Of a stretch of 64,000 nt of DNA, positions 53,094-60,200 are shown in pieces (the first letter of the stretch is position 1; the number at the start of each line of letters is the position of its first letter). The notes under the pieces are model-generated. The model was given only the letters and a program-made list of their open reading frames with translations, ran no database searches and was not told the DNA's origin. The stretch covers positions 59,683 to 123,682 of the forward strand of contig JBBRLJ010000009.1 of NCBI GenBank assembly GCA_038231435.1. Reading direction: 5' to 3'. The DNA comes from Planctomycetota bacterium (GTDB taxonomy: Bacteria > Planctomycetota > UBA11346). The position numbers and the translations under genes were made by a program.

Positions 53094-53487
53094 TCGGGGG
53101 CTTTGCCCCCAAACCCCCACGACCCTTTGTCGTGCCTATTTTTGGCCGGCGGCCAAAAATTTTGCGTGATGGGCTGCGCCCATTGTTCACGCAAAACGGA
53201 GCTCGGCGGTCGCTCGCGGCGGCGCCGCTCGGTAGATGATTCGGGGCTTTGCCCCCAAACCCCCACGACCCTGTGTCGCGCCTATTTTTGGCCGGCGGCC
53301 AAAAATTTTGCGTGATAGGCTGCGCCCATTGTTCACGCAAAACGGACCTCGCCGGTCGCTCTCGACGGCGCCGCTCGGCAGCGTGATTCGGGGCTTTGCC
53401 CCAGGCCCCCACGACCTGTGTCGCTCCTCTTTATTGGCCGTGACGGCCAAAAGAGTTTGCGTGATGGGATGCGCCCATTGTTCACGT
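53094..53487 (+). repeat. Tandem array of a 147-bp structured unit (two full copies plus one partial)
   Basis: Units start at 53094, 53241 and 53388; each contains several hairpins. Confidence 0.92.
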
Positions 53488-53621
53488 TAACTGTAATTCG
53501 GCGATCATTCGCGGTGGTTCGATGGACAGCCTGACTTCGGTTAGGGCTGCCGTTGAACCCATGAGAAGGTCCGGGCCTGCGTGGATTGCCCGCATGTCCT
53601 CCATGCTAGTGTGGCTCCACG

Positions 53622-54689
53622 ATGCCTCAGGCCTGGATCACCCATGTCGGCCATGCCGTGCCCGGCGAGCCGGTACCGCAGGAGGCATTCGCGCGATTCA
53701 TGGAACCGCGACTGGCACCCGGCACCAGCATCGAACGTTGGCGCAAGTTCAATGCCCGCTCTGGCGTGAGCATCCGCCATACGGTCATCGACGTGTTCGG
53801 TGGTGAGGGCGCGGCATTCTGGCCGATCGATGCCAAGGCTCCGGCCGGCATGGCGGCGCGTAGCGTCCTCTTCGATCAGCGCGCGCTGCCGCTGGCGGCC
53901 GCCGCGGTGGCGGCCGCCAATCCGGGCGATCTCTCGACGATCACCCACCTGATCGTCACCACCTGCACGGGGGCGGTTGCGCCCGGCCTCGACATCCAGC
54001 TGGTGCGGAGCCTCGGGCTGGCGGGCTCGGTGCGGCGCACCGTGATCGGCTTCATGGGTTGCTACGCGGCCATCCCGGCACTGCGCATGGCTCGTGACAT
54101 CTGCCGGGCCGACCCGGTCGCAAAAGTCCTGGTGGTGTGCTGCGAGCTGAGCTCTCTGCACCTGCAGGCCGGCCCCTCGAACGACGCTCTGTTGGCCGCC
54201 TGCCTGTTCGCCGACGGCGCGAGCGCGGCAATCATCCAAGGCGGCGACCAGCCGATCGGCATGGGCCTGCGCATCGCCGCCGATGCCAGCGCCTTGATCG
54301 CCGACAGCGGCGACCACATGACCTGGCACGCGGGCGATACCGGCTTTGTGCTCGGACTATCGCCCGCGATCACCGCTTCGCTCTCCGGAGATCTGGCGCC
54401 GCTATGCGCCCAGCTGCTGGGAGCGGATGCAGTGCCGGATTCGGCGCGCTGGATCGTGCACCCCGGTGGCCCACGCATCCTCGACGCCACCGCGAAGGCA
54501 TTGCGCCTCGGCGATCATGCCCTCGACAGCAGCCGCGCGGCGCTGGATCAGGGCGGCAACCGCAGCAGCGGCACCGTGCTGGCCATCCTCGCCGAGGAGA
54601 TCCGCCAGCCCTGGCGCGGCAACATCGGCATGCTCGCCTTCGGCCCAGGATTGACCGCAGAGGCGCTGCTGCTCGAGCGCCAGCCATGA
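53622..54689 (+). CDS. Type III polyketide synthase
   Basis: Cys-His-Asn triad: 'FMGCYAA', 'VHPGGP', 'GNRSS'; also 'TCTG', 'CELSSLH', 'LFADG', 'FGPG'. Confidence 0.95.
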   Translation: MPQAWITHVGHAVPGEPVPQEAFARFMEPRLAPGTSIERWRKFNARSGVSIRHTVIDVFGGEGAAFWPIDAKAPAGMAARSVLFDQRALPLAAAAVAAANPGDLSTITHLIVTTCTGAVAPGLDIQLVRSLGLAGSVRRTVIGFMGCYAAIPALRMARDICRADPVAKVLVVCCELSSLHLQAGPSNDALLAACLFADGASAAIIQGGDQPIGMGLRIAADASALIADSGDHMTWHAGDTGFVLGLSPAITASLSGDLAPLCAQLLGADAVPDSARWIVHPGGPRILDATAKALRLGDHALDSSRAALDQGGNRSSGTVLAILAEEIRQPWRGNIGMLAFGPGLTAEALLLERQP

Positions 54690-55471
54690 GCGATGACGGT
54701 ACCCCGGCCGTGCAGCGGGACAGAGCGAGCCTGCGTGGGCTCGACCTCGAAGCCCATCTGAACGATCCGCTGCGAAAGCAGGCCTACGTGACGACGATGT
54801 TCGACATCATCGCGCCGCGCTACGACCGCTTCACGCGCTGGTTCTCGTACGGCATGGACGCGACCTGGAAGCGCGAACTCATCGATGCTGTCGCCGTCCG
54901 CGCGCGCGCCGACGCGAGCATAGCGGATCTGGCCTGTGGCACCGGCGACCTGTGCTTCGCCCTGGCCGAACGGATTCCGGGAGCGCGCGTGGTCGGCCTC
55001 GACGCATCCGCCGAGATGATCGCGCAGGCGCGCGCCATCGCGTTGGAGCGCCGCGTGAAGGTGGACCTCGAGGTCGGCGACATGATGGCGCTTCCCTACG
55101 CCGATGGCAGCCTCGATGCGATCACCATGGGCTATGGGCTGCGCAACGTCCCGGATTTCCACGTCGCGCTGCGCGAGGCAGCGCGGGCTCTGAAGCCGGG
55201 AGGCACCCTGGCCTGCCTCGACTTCGCGCGACCGCGTTCGCGGATATGGCGTTGGGTGTTCCTCTCCTACCTCGCGGTCGTCGGTAGCCTCTATGGTTGG
55301 TGGTGGCACGGTCAGGCCGACGTTTACCGATACATCGGGCGTTCGATCGATCATTTCGTGTCCTGGCGCGAACTCTCCGCGGCGATGCGAGCCGAAGGCC
55401 TCGAGCCGGTGCTCGAGCGGCGGCGGCTTTTCGGCGGCGTGTGCCTGCACGTATGCGTCAGGTCGTCGTGA
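54686..55471 (+). CDS. UbiE/MenG-family methyltransferase
   Basis: 'YV..MFD.IAPRYD....FSYGMD..WK', 'DLACGTGD', 'GYGLRNV'; ATGA overlap with the PKS. Confidence 0.88.
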   Translation: MSDDGTPAVQRDRASLRGLDLEAHLNDPLRKQAYVTTMFDIIAPRYDRFTRWFSYGMDATWKRELIDAVAVRARADASIADLACGTGDLCFALAERIPGARVVGLDASAEMIAQARAIALERRVKVDLEVGDMMALPYADGSLDAITMGYGLRNVPDFHVALREAARALKPGGTLACLDFARPRSRIWRWVFLSYLAVVGSLYGWWWHGQADVYRYIGRSIDHFVSWRELSAAMRAEGLEPVLERRRLFGGVCLHVCVRSS

Positions 55472-55625
55472 TGTGTGGGGTGCGACGTGCGGCGTGCGGC
55501 GTGACGGCCGGTTCCAACGTCCTTGCTAACCAGTGTATTCCATCGACGTCTGCCGCCATCGCGTCACGAGGCATGGCTCACCCCGGACGCCGTTCCCGCT
55601 TATCGCCCGCATTCCCTCCCAACCG

Positions 55626-56333
55626 ATGAAGAACGATCTCGAGCTCTACGACCGCTGCGCGGCCGACTGGTGGGACGTGCACAGCAACTTCGCGGCCTCG
55701 TTGCACGCGCTCAACCGGGTGCGCCTCGCCGAGATCCGCGATCGCGTGGGCTACGGATTCCGTGGCGTTGTTGCCGATCTCGGCTGTGGCGGTGGGTTGT
55801 TGTCCGAGCCGCTGGCACGGGATGGGGCGACCGTCATCGGCGTCGACATCAGCCGCCAGAGCCTCAAGGCGGCCTCTGAGCATGGCGACGATTGCCCACG
55901 TCTGCATTATGCGCGGGGGGACGCGCGCGACGCTCCGCTCGCCGATGGCTGCGCCGATCTAGTGATCTGCGCCGACGTCATCGAGCACGTCGCCGACTGG
56001 CCGCGCGTGCTGTCATGCGCTGCGCGTCTCGCTCGCCCAGGTGGGCTGTTCTACGTCAACACCATCTCACGCACCTGGCGCGCTCGGGCGGTCGCCATCT
56101 GGCTCGGCGAAGGCCTCGGCTTCGTGCCGCGAGGCACCCACGACCACCGCCTGTTCGTGCGCCCCGACGAACTGGCGCGCGAAGCGAAGCGCAGCGGATG
56201 GCACTTCGAATGTGCCCTCGGCCAACGCATCCGCCCCTTGCGCACGCTGCTCTCCTGGCGCCTGTCGGTCGCCCCATCGCGCGGCACCTGGGCCACCTAC
56301 AGCGCCTGGATGACTCTCGGGCAAGGGCCATAG
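55626..56333 (+). CDS. UbiG/Coq3-like O-methyltransferase
   Basis: 'WWD....SLH.LN.VRL', 'DLGCGGGLLSE.LA', 'DVIEHV', 'TISRT', 'P.GTHD...F..P.EL'. Confidence 0.88.
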   Translation: MKNDLELYDRCAADWWDVHSNFAASLHALNRVRLAEIRDRVGYGFRGVVADLGCGGGLLSEPLARDGATVIGVDISRQSLKAASEHGDDCPRLHYARGDARDAPLADGCADLVICADVIEHVADWPRVLSCAARLARPGGLFYVNTISRTWRARAVAIWLGEGLGFVPRGTHDHRLFVRPDELAREAKRSGWHFECALGQRIRPLRTLLSWRLSVAPSRGTWATYSAWMTLGQGP

Positions 56334-56340
56334 CGGACGC

Positions 56341-57540
56341 GTGGGCAGCGCGCGCCGGTATGACCTGGTGATCGTCGGCGGAGGACCCGCTGGAGCCTTG
56401 ACCGCCCTGCTCACGCGCCGAGCGCGACCGGATCTCGAGGTGCTCGTTCTGGAAGCTGCCGCGGCGCCCGAGCACCGGCCGTGCGGAGAATTCCTCGGCC
56501 CGGATGGCGTGCGCATCCTCGCCCGGGCGGGACTCGAAGCGGCCGTCGAGGCGGCTGGCGCCAAGCGGCTCTCGGGACTCAGTCTCCACGCTCCGCGCGG
56601 CGTCCTCGGTTCCGCGTTCGCGCCGGTGGCTGGCCTGTGTCCACCCAGCGATCATGCGCTGGGCGTGCGGCGCGAGCGTTTCGACCGCTGCCTGCAGGAC
56701 GCCGCCTCAGAATCCGGAGCCGAACTGCGCCGCGGCGCCCGCGTCGACGATCTATCGCGCGATGGCGATGGCTGGATGCTGTCGACTCGCGACGGCGCGC
56801 GCATCACCACGGGCATGCTGGTCGGAGCCGATGGCCGGCGGAGCCAGGTGCGCCATCGAGCCGGTCTCGATCTTCCAGTTCGGCGCAAACGCTTCGCGCT
56901 GGTATGCCGCGCCAGCGGCATCCTGCCCCGCCATCCTGATCGTGTGCATCCAGGCGATCCGATGGGCGAACACGGCGAGATGCATCTGGGCCCCCTCGGA
57001 CAGATCGGTCTCGCGCCGCTCGGCGATGGCGAGGTCAACCTCAACCTGCTGCTCGCAGAGACCAGCCGTCCGCTGTTGCGCGATCGCTCGCCGGGACATG
57101 TCCTGCGTGCGGGACTGATGGCCACGCCGAGCCTTCGGGAACGCTGTCGGCGAGCGCACCTCGGACCGGTGATGGCCACCGGTTCCCTGCCGAGCGCGAG
57201 CCGCGCGGTGATCGCCGATGGCGTGGCATTGGCAGGGGACGCGGCGGGTTTCTGCGACCCGTTCACCGGTGACGGCATGTGCTTCGCATTGGGCGGCGCC
57301 GAGCTGCTCGCGGGATGCCTCACGCGCCTGGATCTGCGCGCGGGAATCGGTCCCAACGCGCTGGCGCCGTACGCCCGGGCATGGCGGGCGCGATTCGGCG
57401 CCAAGCGCGGCATGGCGGGCGGACTCCACCACCTGCTCTCGCGACGTCTCCTCGCCGAGACTGTCGTCGGTCTGCTCGGTTCGAGCAAGACGCTCGGCCG
57501 GTTGATGGTGGCGTTCAACGGCGATTACACTCTTCCCTGA
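56341..57540 (+). CDS. FAD-dependent oxidoreductase (monooxygenase / geranylgeranyl-reductase superfamily)
   Basis: 'GGGPAG', 'PCGE', 'GADGRRS', 'GDAAG..DPFTGDGM'. Confidence 0.85.
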   Translation: MGSARRYDLVIVGGGPAGALTALLTRRARPDLEVLVLEAAAAPEHRPCGEFLGPDGVRILARAGLEAAVEAAGAKRLSGLSLHAPRGVLGSAFAPVAGLCPPSDHALGVRRERFDRCLQDAASESGAELRRGARVDDLSRDGDGWMLSTRDGARITTGMLVGADGRRSQVRHRAGLDLPVRRKRFALVCRASGILPRHPDRVHPGDPMGEHGEMHLGPLGQIGLAPLGDGEVNLNLLLAETSRPLLRDRSPGHVLRAGLMATPSLRERCRRAHLGPVMATGSLPSASRAVIADGVALAGDAAGFCDPFTGDGMCFALGGAELLAGCLTRLDLRAGIGPNALAPYARAWRARFGAKRGMAGGLHHLLSRRLLAETVVGLLGSSKTLGRLMVAFNGDYTLP

Positions 57541-57569
57541 AGCAGGCACGGCGGATACTCGCGGCCCTC

Positions 57570-58196
57570 ATGGAAAACCCCGAAGTTCCGCTCGAGCAGG
57601 TGCAAGAGCACATCCACCATCACGCCCAGCATGGCAGCGAAGGCCGTTCGACGACCTGGATCGCCCTCTCGACGGCGATCATCGCGGCGCTGGCGGCATT
57701 GGCCTCCATGCTCGCCGGCCATACCGAGACCGAGGCGATGCACGCCAAGATGGACGCCAACGATACCTGGAGCTGGTACCAGGCCGATTCGATCAAGCAG
57801 CATGAGATGGACGGCACTGCCGTGGTGTTACGCGCCCTGGGGCACGAGCCGGATGCTAAGAACGCGGCGAAGAGCGAGGAATACGCGATAGAGAAGAAGC
57901 GCCTCAAGGCCACCGCCGAGGCGTTCGACCACGAGTCGCTGTCGTTCCTCGCCGCTCATACCCACTACGGATACGGCGTCACCATGTTCCAGATCGCCAT
58001 CGCCCTGGGCGCGATCTCGGTGCTGACCAAGCGACGCAGGTACTGGCTGATGAGCCTGGGTCTCGGCGTCGTCGGCGTGGTCTTCGGAGCCTCGGGCGTC
58101 GTGACGCAGGCCAGCATCCATGCCCCGATCGAATCGAGCGAGTCGGGTGAGGCTCCGCATGCGGCGGCGGCTGAACCGGCGCAGCCAGCGCACTGA
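57570..58196 (+). CDS. DUF4337-like membrane protein
   Basis: 'WIALSTAIIAALAA', 'D.WSWYQA.SIK', 'FQIAIALGAISVLTK'. Confidence 0.8.
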   Translation: MENPEVPLEQVQEHIHHHAQHGSEGRSTTWIALSTAIIAALAALASMLAGHTETEAMHAKMDANDTWSWYQADSIKQHEMDGTAVVLRALGHEPDAKNAAKSEEYAIEKKRLKATAEAFDHESLSFLAAHTHYGYGVTMFQIAIALGAISVLTKRRRYWLMSLGLGVVGVVFGASGVVTQASIHAPIESSESGEAPHAAAAEPAQPAH

Positions 58197-58307
58197 ATTC
58201 CCTAAGACGCAGGCACGCGTCAGCTGACAGAAACAATCGAGCCCGGGCCGATGAGGGCCCGGGCTCGACGATTTCCTACCAGTTCGGCGGCGATACCGCC
58301 GACTCGA

Positions 58308-58478
58308 TCAGGGCGCGTGGTGCTTGTGGTGATGCTTGCCGGGCTTGGCGTGCTTGTGGTGGTGCTTCGCATGGGTCGCCTTGACCGAGCCGGCCTGCGG
58401 CTCGGCGGCGGATAGGCTGGCGGTGCTGAAGAACGCGCCAACGGACAGGGCGAGGGCGATCGAAAGGATGCGGGTCAT
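58308..58478 (-). CDS. Small exported His/Lys-rich peptide (56 aa)
   Basis: Signal peptide MTRILSIALALSVGAFFSTASLSA followed by AEPQAGSVKATHAKHHHKHAKPGKHHHKHHAP. Confidence 0.7.
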   Translation of the reverse strand: MTRILSIALALSVGAFFSTASLSAAEPQAGSVKATHAKHHHKHAKPGKHHHKHHAP

Positions 58479-58580
58479 GGGGTTTCCTGGATGGGTTCGG
58501 TGCATGCTAACGTCACGCCTCGGTTCTGAAAGAGGGACGGAACACGCCGCGCCGCGCCGCGGAAGCATTCGCGTCGCTCG

Positions 58581-60200
58581 TCACGTCGCCGGGTTGGTTG
58601 CGCCCGTGATCTGCTGGGGCAAACTGCCCCGATGGGCCCCGGAATTGGCCTGTTCCAGGGTGAATCTGAAGGTCGAACCGCTGCCCGCATTCGATTCCAC
58701 CCAGATCCTACCGCCATGGTGCTGCACCACCTTACGGCAGAACGCCAAGCCGATCCCAGTACCAGGGTACTCGGCCCGGGTGTGCAGACGCTGGAAGATG
58801 CCGAATATCTTGTCGTGGTGCTCGGGTGAGATGCCGATGCCATTGTCCGCGATCGAGAATTCCCAGATCCCGTCCACTTGCCGCGCCGACACCTCGATGC
58901 GTGGGCGGTCCTTGCCGCGAAACTTGATGCCATTGGCGATGATGTTCTGAAACACCTGGCCGATGAGCACGCCATCGCCCTTGATCTTGGGAAGAGGTCT
59001 CGCGACGACCTCGGCGCCGCTCTCCTGGATGATCGACTGCAGGTTGAACATCGCCTTGTTCAGCACCTCGTCGCTGTCGACAAGGTTGGGCGCTTCGATC
59101 TTGCCGATGCGCGAGAGCGCAAGGATATCGCGGATCAGCGTCTGCATGCGACCCGAGCTGTCGATCAGGGTCGAGATGTATTGGCGTCCCTGGTCATCGA
59201 GCTTGTCGGCGTATCGCCGGGCCAGGAGCGACGAGAAGGACGACACCATGCGCAGGGGTTCCTGCAGGTCGTGCGAGGCGATGTAGGCAAACTGCTCGAG
59301 CTCGGCGTTCGTGCGCGCGAGCTCCTCTGCCTTGGTGACCAAGGTCTCCTCGGCGAGCTTGCGGTCAGTGATGTCCTCGACGAGTCCGTCGATGACCCGG
59401 TCCTTGCCTGGCTCGAGATTGAGGGTCTTGGACAGGCGTACCCATATGATCCTTCCATCCTTGCGGCGCATCTTGACCACATGCTCCTGGGTCTGGCCAT
59501 GGATGATCAGCTTGGAAATGACTTCGTCTCGCTCGTGCGGATTCACGTAGAGCTCGCGCATGCCCACGCTGTGCGGATCGACCGTCGGATCGATGCCCAG
59601 CAGGCGGAAGAAGGCGGGATTGGCCTCGATCAGCAAACCATCATAGGACGAACGGAATATGCCGACATTCAGCCGATTGAGCAGCGCATGCAGGCGGCTT
59701 TCCAGCTGCGCGGCCCGGTGTTCGGCCGCAACGCGCAGCAGATCGCCCTGCCGCTTCACCTGCTGGGTCTTCTTGAACAGATCGATGAACACCGAGACCT
59801 TGGCGCGCAGCACCTCGGACACTACTGGCGCGAAGATGTAGTCGACCGCTCCCAACAAATAGCCGCGGCTGGCATGGGTCTCGGTCGCATTGATCGCACT
59901 GACAAAGATGATCGGGGTATGCTCGCTGTTCTTGCGCTGACGGATCAGCGATGCAGTTTCGAATCCATCCATCACCGGCATGCTGACATCGAGCAGGATC
60001 ACCGCGAATTCATCGCGCAGCAGGAGGCGGAGCGCCTCCTTGCCCGAGGTCGCGGTGACGATGTTCTGGCCGAGCTCGCCCAAGACGGATTCCAGCGCCA
60101 TGATCTTATCGGGTCGATCGTCGACGATGAGGATGTTCACCCTCTCGTCGGCGGTATTCCCCCCAGGCGGATCCTGCTTCGGCTGCCCCTTGATCGACAT
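58581..60200 (-). CDS. Hybrid histidine kinase REC-PAS-HisKA-HATPase
   Basis: 'ILIVDD', 'LDVSMP.MDG', PAS/PAC, 'SHDLQEPLR', 'DNGIGI', 'GTGIGLA'. Confidence 0.93.
   Translation of the reverse strand: MSIKGQPKQDPPGGNTADERVNILIVDDRPDKIMALESVLGELGQNIVTATSGKEALRLLLRDEFAVILLDVSMPVMDGFETASLIRQRKNSEHTPIIFVSAINATETHASRGYLLGAVDYIFAPVVSEVLRAKVSVFIDLFKKTQQVKRQGDLLRVAAEHRAAQLESRLHALLNRLNVGIFRSSYDGLLIEANPAFFRLLGIDPTVDPHSVGMRELYVNPHERDEVISKLIIHGQTQEHVVKMRRKDGRIIWVRLSKTLNLEPGKDRVIDGLVEDITDRKLAEETLVTKAEELARTNAELEQFAYIASHDLQEPLRMVSSFSSLLARRYADKLDDQGRQYISTLIDSSGRMQTLIRDILALSRIGKIEAPNLVDSDEVLNKAMFNLQSIIQESGAEVVARPLPKIKGDGVLIGQVFQNIIANGIKFRGKDRPRIEVSARQVDGIWEFSIADNGIGISPEHHDKIFGIFQRLHTRAEYPGTGIGLAFCRKVVQHHGGRIWVESNAGSGSTFRFTLEQANSGAHRGSLPQQITGATNPAT

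What the first reader, a model, noticed from the sequence alone, without database searches (positions are those of the whole stretch)
53622..57540. Type III PKS + UbiE-like + UbiG-like + flavoprotein: candidate polyketide route to a ubiquinone-like molecule
Seen: four co-oriented genes (PKS/UbiE overlap, 7-bp gap before the flavoprotein) with intact catalytic motifs and no prenyltransferase. Known: type III PKSs make alkylresorcinols or pyrones; Streptomyces SrsABC adds an O-methyltransferase and a flavin hydroxylase; in ubiquinone synthesis UbiE is a ring C-methyltransferase and UbiG an O-methyltransferase. Inference: ring hydroxylation plus C- and O-methylation would give a methyl-methoxy alkylbenzoquinone, a non-isoprenoid electron carrier or antioxidant. 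Having both Ubi-type methyltransferases is what stands out.
Basis: partly seen in the sequence, partly recalled or inferred. Interest (0 to 1): 0.7.

Follow-up and report, generated by a model that had tools for sequence, protein, structure and literature searches.

The report
Planctomycete polyketide-quinone cluster with borrowed methyltransferases
An uncultured planctomycete carries four genes that probably turn a fatty acid into a methylated, quinone-like membrane lipid of a type already known from actinobacteria, but using methyltransferases borrowed from the respiratory-quinone enzyme families.

Summary
Four intact co-oriented genes are present: type III PKS, UbiE/MenG-type and UbiG-type methyltransferases, and a flavoprotein. 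The linkage is conserved. Among 48 genomes of the host family, 16 carry the PKS orthologue. All 12 with the UbiE paralogue, all 12 with the UbiG-like gene and 14 of 15 with the flavoprotein are among them, in reshuffled orders. The host keeps a separate menaquinone pathway with its own menG; no ubiquinone pathway was found. Best reading (inferred, about 55%): an alkylresorcinol is hydroxylated, O-methylated and C-methylated to 2-methoxy-5-methyl-6-alkyl-1,4-benzo(hydro)quinone. That structure is the known SrsABC/PkqABC "polyketide quinone", reached here by different enzymes. A UbiG-like gene beside a planctomycete type III PKS is already in print (S. ferox mtr1, no activity seen). I found no paper on the UbiE recruitment. 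This scan noted PKS+UbiE and PKS+UbiG cassettes in other genomes. A respiratory role is untested. Patchy distribution and MMPL/YceI partners in relatives point more to an accessory envelope or antioxidant lipid. New variant of a known kind.

The parts
53622..54689 (+). Type III polyketide synthase (355 aa), predicted long-chain alkylresorcinol synthase. Triad C147/H280/N313, W235 at the tunnel entrance, R285 five residues after the catalytic His, and a GNRSS motif shared by its clade.
   Evidence: Pfam; PDB hits; AlphaFold model pLDDT 91, TM 0.93 to a Mycobacterium marinum type III PKS; tree and motif table; spacing compared with ArsMB in PMC13730376
54686..55471 (+). UbiE/MenG-type C-methyltransferase paralogue (261 aa), distinct from the host's housekeeping MenG (38% identity).
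   Evidence: TIGR01934 above cut-off; best PDB hit yeast Coq5 with RYD and GLRN aligned; second copy on contig C60; family profile
55626..56333 (+). UbiG-like O-methyltransferase (235 aa; homologues support the ATG at 55626 over the GTG at 55533), member of a non-canonical, often PKS-linked subfamily. H121 aligns with E. coli UbiG H134.
   Evidence: TIGR01983 above cut-off; 4KDC alignment; alignment A1 (52); only above-cut-off UbiG match in the genome; tree; H134 role from PMC9774615
56341..57540 (+). FAD-dependent oxidoreductase (399 aa) of the halogenase / geranylgeranyl-reductase / monooxygenase fold; predicted ring hydroxylase.
   Evidence: PF01494; no WxWxIP or YxWxFP motif in 25 of 25 aligned homologues; model pLDDT 92, Foldseek top hits are halogenases, then monooxygenases; family profile

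Best explanation
A four-enzyme pathway to a methylated phenolic lipid/quinone of the polyketide-quinone (PkQ) type. (1) The PKS extends a long-chain acyl-ACP/CoA with three malonyl units and makes a 5-alkylresorcinol by aldol cyclisation. (2) The flavoprotein hydroxylates the ring ortho to the alkyl chain, giving a 6-alkyl-1,2,4-trihydroxybenzene. (3) The UbiG-like enzyme O-methylates the outer catechol hydroxyl, as UbiG does on polyprenyl catechols. This gives 2-methoxy-6-alkyl-1,4-benzoquinol, the alkyl analogue of the UbiE/Coq5 substrate DDMQH2. (4) The UbiE/MenG paralogue C-methylates it to 2-methoxy-5-methyl-6-alkyl-1,4-benzoquinol, the alkyl analogue of demethoxyubiquinol. The order of steps 2 and 3 may be swapped. 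The lipid is most likely an accessory membrane/envelope redox lipid (antioxidant, membrane modifier or conditional electron carrier) next to menaquinone. Shown here: genes, families, motifs, linkage, co-occurrence, independence from the men pathway. Inferred: every substrate, product and physiological role.
For: Co-occurrence in 48 family genomes: UbiE paralogue 12 of 16 PKS+ and 0 of 32 PKS-; UbiG-like 12 of 16 and 0 of 32; flavoprotein 14 of 16 and 1 of 32 (tallied in 116). The pattern also holds inside genera: in g7 the 5 PKS+ genomes all have the UbiE paralogue and flavoprotein, and the 6 PKS- genomes have neither. Gene order is reshuffled but linkage is kept. The PKS clade sits among the FMGC-type PKSs that include the planctomycete methyltransferase-oxidoreductase-PKS operons, apart from the Pks11-like clade. 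In PMC10896814 the operon-encoded enzymes of the former group made unmethylated alkylresorcinols, so a ring methyl would need a C-methyltransferase. The Pks11-like clusters examined (L239, L240, L242) have the UbiG-like gene and flavoprotein but no UbiE paralogue. W235 matches the aldol-associated Trp described in PMC13730376. COQ5 converts DDMQH2 to DMQH2 (PMC9774615); UbiG is the O- and UbiE the C-methyltransferase (PMC8854274). The same end structure, 5-methoxy-2-methyl-3-alkylbenzene-1,4-diol, is a detected PkQ intermediate (PMC9927152).
Against: No product or expression data. In PMC10896814 co-expressing the S. ferox UbiG-like gene (with a second methyltransferase, without a flavoprotein) changed nothing, and the G. 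maris oxidoreductase gave no hydroxylated product. The UbiE paralogue stands alone in three genomes of another planctomycete family where no type III PKS was found (54-56% identity). More distant relatives in Acidobacteriota had no PKS nearby in 6 of 6 loci. UbiG-like copies are unlinked to the PKS in 3 of 12 family genomes. Only 8 of 16 PKS+ genomes hold all four genes, and only 3 hold them on one contig; all 16 are under 90% complete. Pks11, named a pyrone synthase in the PDB, also has Trp at this position, and PMC13730376 says a model alone cannot infer cyclisation. The best structural matches of the flavoprotein are halogenases. Related genomes are not independent samples.
Confidence: 0.55

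Rival explanations
1. The same pathway ends in a non-quinone methylated phenolic lipid: a hierridin-like O,O-dimethyl or O,C-methyl ether, or a methylated alkylresorcinol without ring oxidation. It serves as an envelope lipid or mediator, and the flavoprotein does something else or acts late.
For: HidA methylates pentadecylresorcinol before hydroxylation and hierridin B is a dimethyl ether (PMC6836626; PMC10896814). Decoration is modular in the family: 4 PKS+ genomes have only the UbiG-like gene and 4 only the UbiE paralogue. An MMPL exporter occurs in 8 of 16 PKS+ and 0 of 32 PKS- genomes. YceI and a YtfJ/thioredoxin-like protein are also in these clusters.
Against: UbiE/Coq5 act on 1,4-quinols. 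The flavoprotein tracks the PKS more tightly than either methyltransferase (14 of 16). The window's genome has no match to the MMPL, YceI or 180-aa partners.
Confidence: 0.25
2. The PKS makes an alkyl-alpha-pyrone that is O-methylated at the 4-OH and C-methylated on the ring.
For: The best PDB sequence matches include pyrone-forming mycobacterial enzymes (their product type partly recalled). The Trp is not diagnostic. The clade has an unusual Arg next to the catalytic Asn (GNRSS in 15 of 15 clade members).
Against: Operon-encoded planctomycete PKSs tested so far gave resorcinols. A UbiE/UbiG pair with a flavoprotein fits an aromatic quinol better (inference).
Confidence: 0.1
3. The UbiE paralogue is a second demethylmenaquinone methyltransferase or acts on an unrelated substrate, and only hitch-hikes with the cluster.
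For: It scores 183 bits on the MenG/UbiE model, close to the housekeeping copy's 196 (17). Its nearest non-family relatives stand alone without a PKS.
Against: In the host family it occurs only with the PKS (12 of 12), within about 5 kb of it on the same contig in 8 of 12, and 11 of those 12 genomes also keep a housekeeping copy. It overlaps the PKS stop codon here.
Confidence: 0.1

Closest known systems
SrsABC (Streptomyces griseus) / PkqABC (Mycobacterium smegmatis, Streptomyces sp. MNU77) polyketide quinones
   Same: Type III PKS plus O-methyltransferase plus flavoprotein. The predicted end structure here is the same methoxy-methyl-alkyl-benzo(hydro)quinone, and PkQ is reported as an alternate electron carrier that coexists with menaquinone (PMC9927152 passages; PMC13730376 passages).
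   Different: There the ring methyl comes from methylmalonyl-CoA and the O-methyltransferase is ICMT-family (49, 99). Here the PKS is outside the Pks11-like clade (92), and UbiE/MenG- and UbiG-family enzymes would supply both methyls.
'Saltatorellus ferox' type III PKS operon (lipoprotein, lipid-binding protein, mtr1, mtr2, PKS; PMC10896814)
   Same: Planctomycete PKS with two methyltransferases. Read by eye from the supplement, mtr1 carries the NDL..YD..WWD, DLGCGGG, DVLEH and GTHD motifs of the window's UbiG-like subfamily. Clusters of this layout (L239, L242) also hold an MMPL gene and the flavoproteins most similar to the window's outside its family (31-35%).
   Different: Its PKS is of the methylmalonyl-type clade and makes methylated resorcinols by itself. 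Its second methyltransferase looks NnrU/MddA-like, not UbiE-like. The final product is unknown.
HidABC (Cyanobium) and the planctomycete methyltransferase-oxidoreductase-PKS operon
   Same: The PKS falls in the same broad FMGC clade as the planctomycete operon enzymes, and the flavoprotein is a distant homologue (27-29%). The G. maris methyltransferase C-methylates, as proposed for the UbiE paralogue here.
   Different: Their single methyltransferase best matches PRK06202 in the three loci scanned (93, below cut-off). It has no match in the window's genome. HidC itself was not in my tree.
Ubiquinone pathway UbiE/UbiG/UbiH-I-F
   Same: Methyltransferase families and key motifs, and the predicted regiochemistry of the two methylations.
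   Different: No 4-hydroxybenzoate prenyltransferase, UbiD or above-cut-off UbiB was found in the 88% complete genome. The UbiG-like protein lies outside the canonical UbiG clade. The flavoprotein scores 72 against a cut-off of 225 on the Ubi hydroxylase model.

Membership tests
Type III PKS (CHS superfamily) | Cys-His-Asn triad and thiolase fold, PF00195 + PF02797 | tested here: met
Alkylresorcinol synthase | Aromatic residue (Trp) at the tunnel entrance | tested here: met
   W235, compared by spacing with ArsMB W228 (81); not diagnostic, since Pks11 has it too
Alkylresorcinol synthase | Forms 5-alkylresorcinol by aldol cyclisation | not testable with these tools
   needs enzyme assay
SrsABC/PkqABC | Methylmalonyl-using PKS of the SrsA/Pks11 clade | tested here: not met
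   The window's PKS is outside the clade that holds the Pks11-like enzymes (quick tree; SrsA and PkqA themselves not included)
SrsABC/PkqABC | ICMT-family O-methyltransferase (SrsB) | tested here: not met
   Both methyltransferases are class I Rossmann; no NnrU/MddA-like match in the genome with the queries used
SrsABC/PkqABC | FAD-dependent ring hydroxylase homologous to SrsC | tested here: inconclusive
   A flavoprotein with DG and GD motifs is present, but no SrsC sequence was available for direct comparison
HidABC / planctomycete mtr-fdo-PKS operon | Single HidA/Mtr-type methyltransferase | tested here: not met
   Two PRK06202-like queries have no match in the genome
HidABC / planctomycete mtr-fdo-PKS operon | PKS of the HidC-like clade with a linked FAD oxidoreductase | tested here: inconclusive
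   Groups with the operon-type enzymes at SH-aLRT 92, on a long branch; HidC not in the tree
Ubiquinone biosynthesis | UbiA (4-HB prenyltransferase), UbiD, UbiB in the genome | tested here: not met
   genome 88% complete
Canonical UbiG | Falls in the canonical UbiG clade | tested here: not met
   Passes the TIGR01983 cut-off but lies in a sister clade (FastTree); 'canonical' was assigned from a recalled N-terminal motif
UbiE/MenG/Coq5 | TIGR01934 above cut-off, with RYD and GLRN motifs | tested here: met
Flavin-dependent halogenase | WxWxIP motif (recalled) | tested here: not met
   absent in 25 of 25 rows of alignment A3 (130), although the top Foldseek hits are halogenases
Respiratory polyketide quinone | Carries electrons in the respiratory chain | not testable with these tools
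   no culture, metabolite or RNA data

The most novel reading that the evidence does not exclude
This lineage rebuilt the head group of demethoxyubiquinone, or with a further hydroxylation and a second UbiG-type methylation full ubiquinone, on a fatty-acid tail. It uses real MenG/UbiE- and UbiG-family enzymes and employs the product as a second, higher-potential respiratory quinone beside menaquinone. That would be a prenyltransferase-free 'alkyl-ubiquinone' pathway in a lineage where no ubiquinone pathway was found. It would also show that Ubi/Men methyltransferases read the head group regardless of tail type.
Probability: 0.12. Interest if true: 0.72.

Novelty: new variant of a known kind. 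Interest (0 to 1): 0.42.

Why it matters
If right, it is convergent evolution on the polyketide-quinone structure by a different enzyme set: a malonyl-type PKS with MenG/UbiE- and UbiG-family methyltransferases, instead of a methylmalonyl-using PKS with an ICMT enzyme. It gives a testable function for many genes annotated 'ubiG' and 'ubiE' in bacteria without ubiquinone, and warns against inferring ubiquinone from those annotations. It also offers a reason for the negative S. ferox mtr1 result, namely that no hydroxylase was co-expressed. The compact four-gene form in this window is the easiest version to express. The compound class and the idea of a polyketide electron carrier are already published, which limits the surprise.

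Tried and rejected
Assembly artefact: rejected, since public contigs span the junctions. Replacement of menaquinone: rejected; menB is in 14 of 16 PKS+ and 25 of 32 PKS- family genomes, and the host has menA, B, C, D, E and menG matches. Futalosine pathway: no PF02621 match. A Coq7-like diiron protein on contig C1 as the missing last hydroxylase: it passes the Pfam cut-off but scores only 29 against 180 on the NCBIfam Coq7 model. It does not track the cluster (9 of 16 PKS+, 11 of 32 PKS-), so it is not counted as a member. The upstream 146-nt repeat as part of the system: rejected, as it has 116 blastn hits genome-wide. Halogenase or geranylgeranyl-reductase function for the flavoprotein: motifs absent. 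NnrU/MddA-like gene as a core part: only 4 of 48 genomes, none in the host. Expression: no RNA holder listed, which is no evidence either way. The plasmid search gave only ordinary ubiE/menG hits at or below 40% identity. The ArsB/ArsC structure paper, tried by a recalled id, was not held, so the Trp equivalence rests on PMC13730376 and PMC9927152. The careful PKS tree did not finish, so the quick IQ-TREE tree is used and one selected locus gave no PKS row. Literature searches for PKS + UbiE/UbiG + alkylquinone (one unrelated paper), PKS + UbiG + alkylresorcinol (none) and alkylresorcinol + UbiE + YceI + menaquinone + PKS (none) found no description of this combination; the library lacks most subscription papers. 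Look-ups of this scan by sequence and by relatives returned nothing. Gene neighbourhoods of the 120 listed UbiE-paralogue homologues could not be fetched.
Full report
Observation. The four ORFs exist as described on the + strand: PKS 53622-54689, UbiE-like 54686-55471 (4-bp overlap), UbiG-like 55626-56333, flavoprotein 56341-57540 (7-bp gap). There is a 154-bp gap between the methyltransferases. Pfam and NCBIfam give a chalcone-synthase-type PKS, TIGR01934 (183 bits, cut-off 158), TIGR01983 (144.7, cut-off 103) and an FAD-binding protein below every cut-off among the 25 best shown. Best PDB sequence hits are mycobacterial and plant type III PKSs, yeast Coq5, E. coli UbiG, and flavin halogenases/monooxygenases. 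One public contig spans window 53243-58800 with two differences and another covers 54260-57368 with none. The order is therefore real, although all four runs are from one study and these two may be the source.

Host. The closest PKS relative with a title (70% identity) is a Planctomycetota genome, and close homologues of both methyltransferases are labelled Planctomycetes. I infer that the window is from an uncultured planctomycete. The genome is 5.2 Mb and 88% complete. It has menB, menA, menC and a menE-like gene together on C39, menD on C31, and a second, higher-scoring menG/ubiE on C60 that is 38% identical to the cluster copy. No futalosine MqnA/D, no UbiD, no above-cut-off UbiB and no 4-hydroxybenzoate prenyltransferase were found. 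The cluster gene is the only above-cut-off UbiG match. The cluster methyltransferases are therefore surplus to menaquinone and have no prenylated benzoquinol to act on.

Conservation. All 48 genomes held for the family were searched. The PKS orthologue (54% identity or more) is in 16; one further genome has a 40% PKS of another clade. The UbiE paralogue (49-71%, clearly apart from the 31-40% housekeeping copies present in 41 genomes) is in 12, all PKS+ (42). The UbiG-like gene is in 12, all PKS+ (41). The flavoprotein is in 15, 14 of them PKS+; the exception is 72% complete. Eight genomes have all four genes; three have them on one contig, as does metagenome locus L158. The UbiE paralogue lies within about 5 kb of the PKS in 8 of 12 genomes and beside other module genes in most of the rest. 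The UbiG-like gene is next to the PKS in 7 of 12, next to the UbiE paralogue on split contigs in 2, and unlinked in 3. Gene orders differ, and the flavoprotein gene is usually divergent from the PKS. L158 has the same flanking genes as the window, and comparison shows that the co-oriented form here arose by inversion of the PKS-UbiE-UbiG block (inference). Relatives often add an MMPL exporter (8 of 16 PKS+, 0 of 32 PKS-; 95), YceI, a secreted YtfJ/thioredoxin-like protein, or an NnrU/MddA-like methyltransferase. None of these matched the window's genome. Caveats: kin are not independent, and no PKS+ genome is 90% complete. The pattern does hold within genera g7 and g2.

The enzymes. The PKS model (pLDDT 91) has the type III PKS fold. 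It has the triad C147/H280/N313, W235 and R285, which match by spacing W228 (aldol-associated) and R280 (ACP-priming) of the alkylresorcinol synthase ArsMB (PMC13730376, one section read). In a 52-row quick tree, the family PKSs and two metagenome relatives form one clade (15 rows, SH-aLRT 100, all with GNRSS). It sits inside the FMGC-type group that holds the planctomycete methyltransferase-oxidoreductase-PKS enzymes, away from Pks11-like enzymes. The UbiE paralogue keeps the motifs aligned with Coq5. The UbiG-like protein keeps the His equivalent to UbiG H134 and the hydrophobic segment before GTH (PMC9774615 passages). A 98-row tree splits its homologues into a canonical-looking clade and a sister clade. 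Among the 80 metagenome loci kept out of 476 confirmed, a type III PKS was nearby for 0 of 40 canonical loci and 17 of 40 others. For loci of at least 6 kb the counts are 0 of 21 and 12 of 19. One of the 17 is identical in protein sequence to a family row and is not independent. The flavoprotein (pLDDT 92) resembles halogenases first and monooxygenases next, but lacks the WxWxIP and YxWxFP motifs (both recalled) in 25 of 25 aligned rows. Outside the family it is closest to flavoproteins of S. ferox-type clusters (31-35%), less to operon-type ones (28-29%). The cluster thus looks chimeric: an operon-type PKS, accessory genes shared with the S. ferox-type module, and a recruited MenG/UbiE paralogue.

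Mechanism (inferred). Hydroxylating a 5-alkylresorcinol next to the chain gives a ring with the substitution pattern of a polyprenyl-trihydroxybenzene. UbiG-type methylation of the outer catechol hydroxyl gives the alkyl analogue of DDMQH2, which is the substrate Coq5/UbiE converts to DMQH2. The product is 2-methoxy-5-methyl-6-alkyl-1,4-benzoquinol. This is the hydroquinone reported in the PkQ pathway of Streptomyces sp. MNU77, where the ring methyl comes from methylmalonyl-CoA (PMC9927152, passages). Consistent with this, the three Pks11-like planctomycete clusters I examined have the UbiG-like gene and the flavoprotein but no UbiE paralogue. I put this product at about 55%, a non-quinone methylated phenolic lipid at 25%, a pyrone at 10%, and a hitch-hiking UbiE at 10%.

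Results against. The UbiE paralogue is not PKS-specific everywhere. In a sample of 301 phylum genomes it was found outside the family in three genomes of one genus. There it stands alone beside a second menG, and no type III PKS was found. Six more distant Acidobacteriota relatives also have no PKS within the fetched stretches. In a sample of 251 phylum genomes, six outside the family had the UbiG-like gene, and three of those six had a PKS nearby. In PMC10896814 (abstract, two of three parts of the results, the discussion and supplement passages read), the S. ferox UbiG-like gene added no methyl group and the G. maris oxidoreductase gave no hydroxylated product in C. glutamicum. Pks11 also has the Trp (91).

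Role. The cluster does not replace menaquinone (menB in 14 of 16 PKS+ and 25 of 32 PKS- genomes). The host has a cytochrome c oxidase next to Qrc/DsrP-like genes, which I recognise from memory as an alternative complex III arrangement. A patchy cluster that travels with an exporter and lipid-binding proteins suggests an accessory envelope or antioxidant lipid. PkQ also coexists with menaquinone in actinobacteria, so a conditional carrier role stays open; I give it about one in four if the quinone is made. A Coq7-like gene elsewhere in the genome could in principle complete a ubiquinone head group, but it does not track the cluster (113, 119, 120).

What is known. PKS + methyltransferase + flavoprotein clusters are well described: SrsABC, PkqABC, HidABC and the planctomycete operon (passages read). 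Hid-like clusters with two methyltransferases are reported (PMC8086630, passages). A UbiG-like gene in a planctomycete PKS operon is in print without that name. Three searches found no paper on a type III PKS with UbiE- and UbiG-type enzymes; subscription papers are mostly missing from the library. PMC8730385 was seen as abstract only and is not relied on. Earlier notes of this scan describe PKS+UbiE(+U32) and PKS+UbiG cassettes in other genomes; I did not check those loci.

Verdict. A real, conserved, lineage-restricted biosynthetic module. It works like SrsABC/PkqABC but fails membership on the PKS clade and the methyltransferase family. New variant of a known kind, interest 0.42.

Noticed in passing
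window 53097-53517: Three tandem copies of a 146-nt element with an internal palindrome directly upstream of the PKS. It is a dispersed repeat with 116 blastn hits across the genome, REP- or MITE-like.
   Followed up: partly
window 54555-54572 (PKS residues 312-317): Arg follows the catalytic Asn (GNRSS instead of GNMSS/GNLSS) in all 15 members of this PKS clade and in two unrelated UbiG-linked PKSs. Its effect is unknown.
   Followed up: partly
G000:C1:295568-296140 (L255:1465-2037): Remote Coq7-like diiron protein in a genome without ubiquinone genes. It is found in 20 of 48 family genomes, independent of the PKS cluster; function unexplained.
   Followed up: partly
L249, L250, L251 (G246, G218, G328): The same UbiE paralogue stands alone as a second menG/ubiE copy in three genomes with no type III PKS match; its substrate is unexplained.
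   Followed up: partly
L239, L240, L242, L169: S. ferox-type clusters include a divergent MMPL and flavoprotein pair that the paper's description of the operon does not mention.
   Followed up: partly
L221, L223, L194, L215, L222, L233: Actinobacteria-like metagenome loci where a UbiG-like gene precedes a type III PKS, often with a roughly 388-aa gene (acyl-CoA-dehydrogenase-like by eye) in the unit. This is a separate cassette type.
   Followed up: no
window 57570-58196: DUF4337 membrane protein 29 bp downstream of the flavoprotein, also beside it in L158 but not seen in the other family clusters examined.
   Followed up: partly
L146:661-1203 and L141:650-1711: A secreted YtfJ/thioredoxin-like protein accompanies the MMPL gene and is fused to YceI in two genomes; a possible periplasmic carrier for the lipid.
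   Followed up: partly
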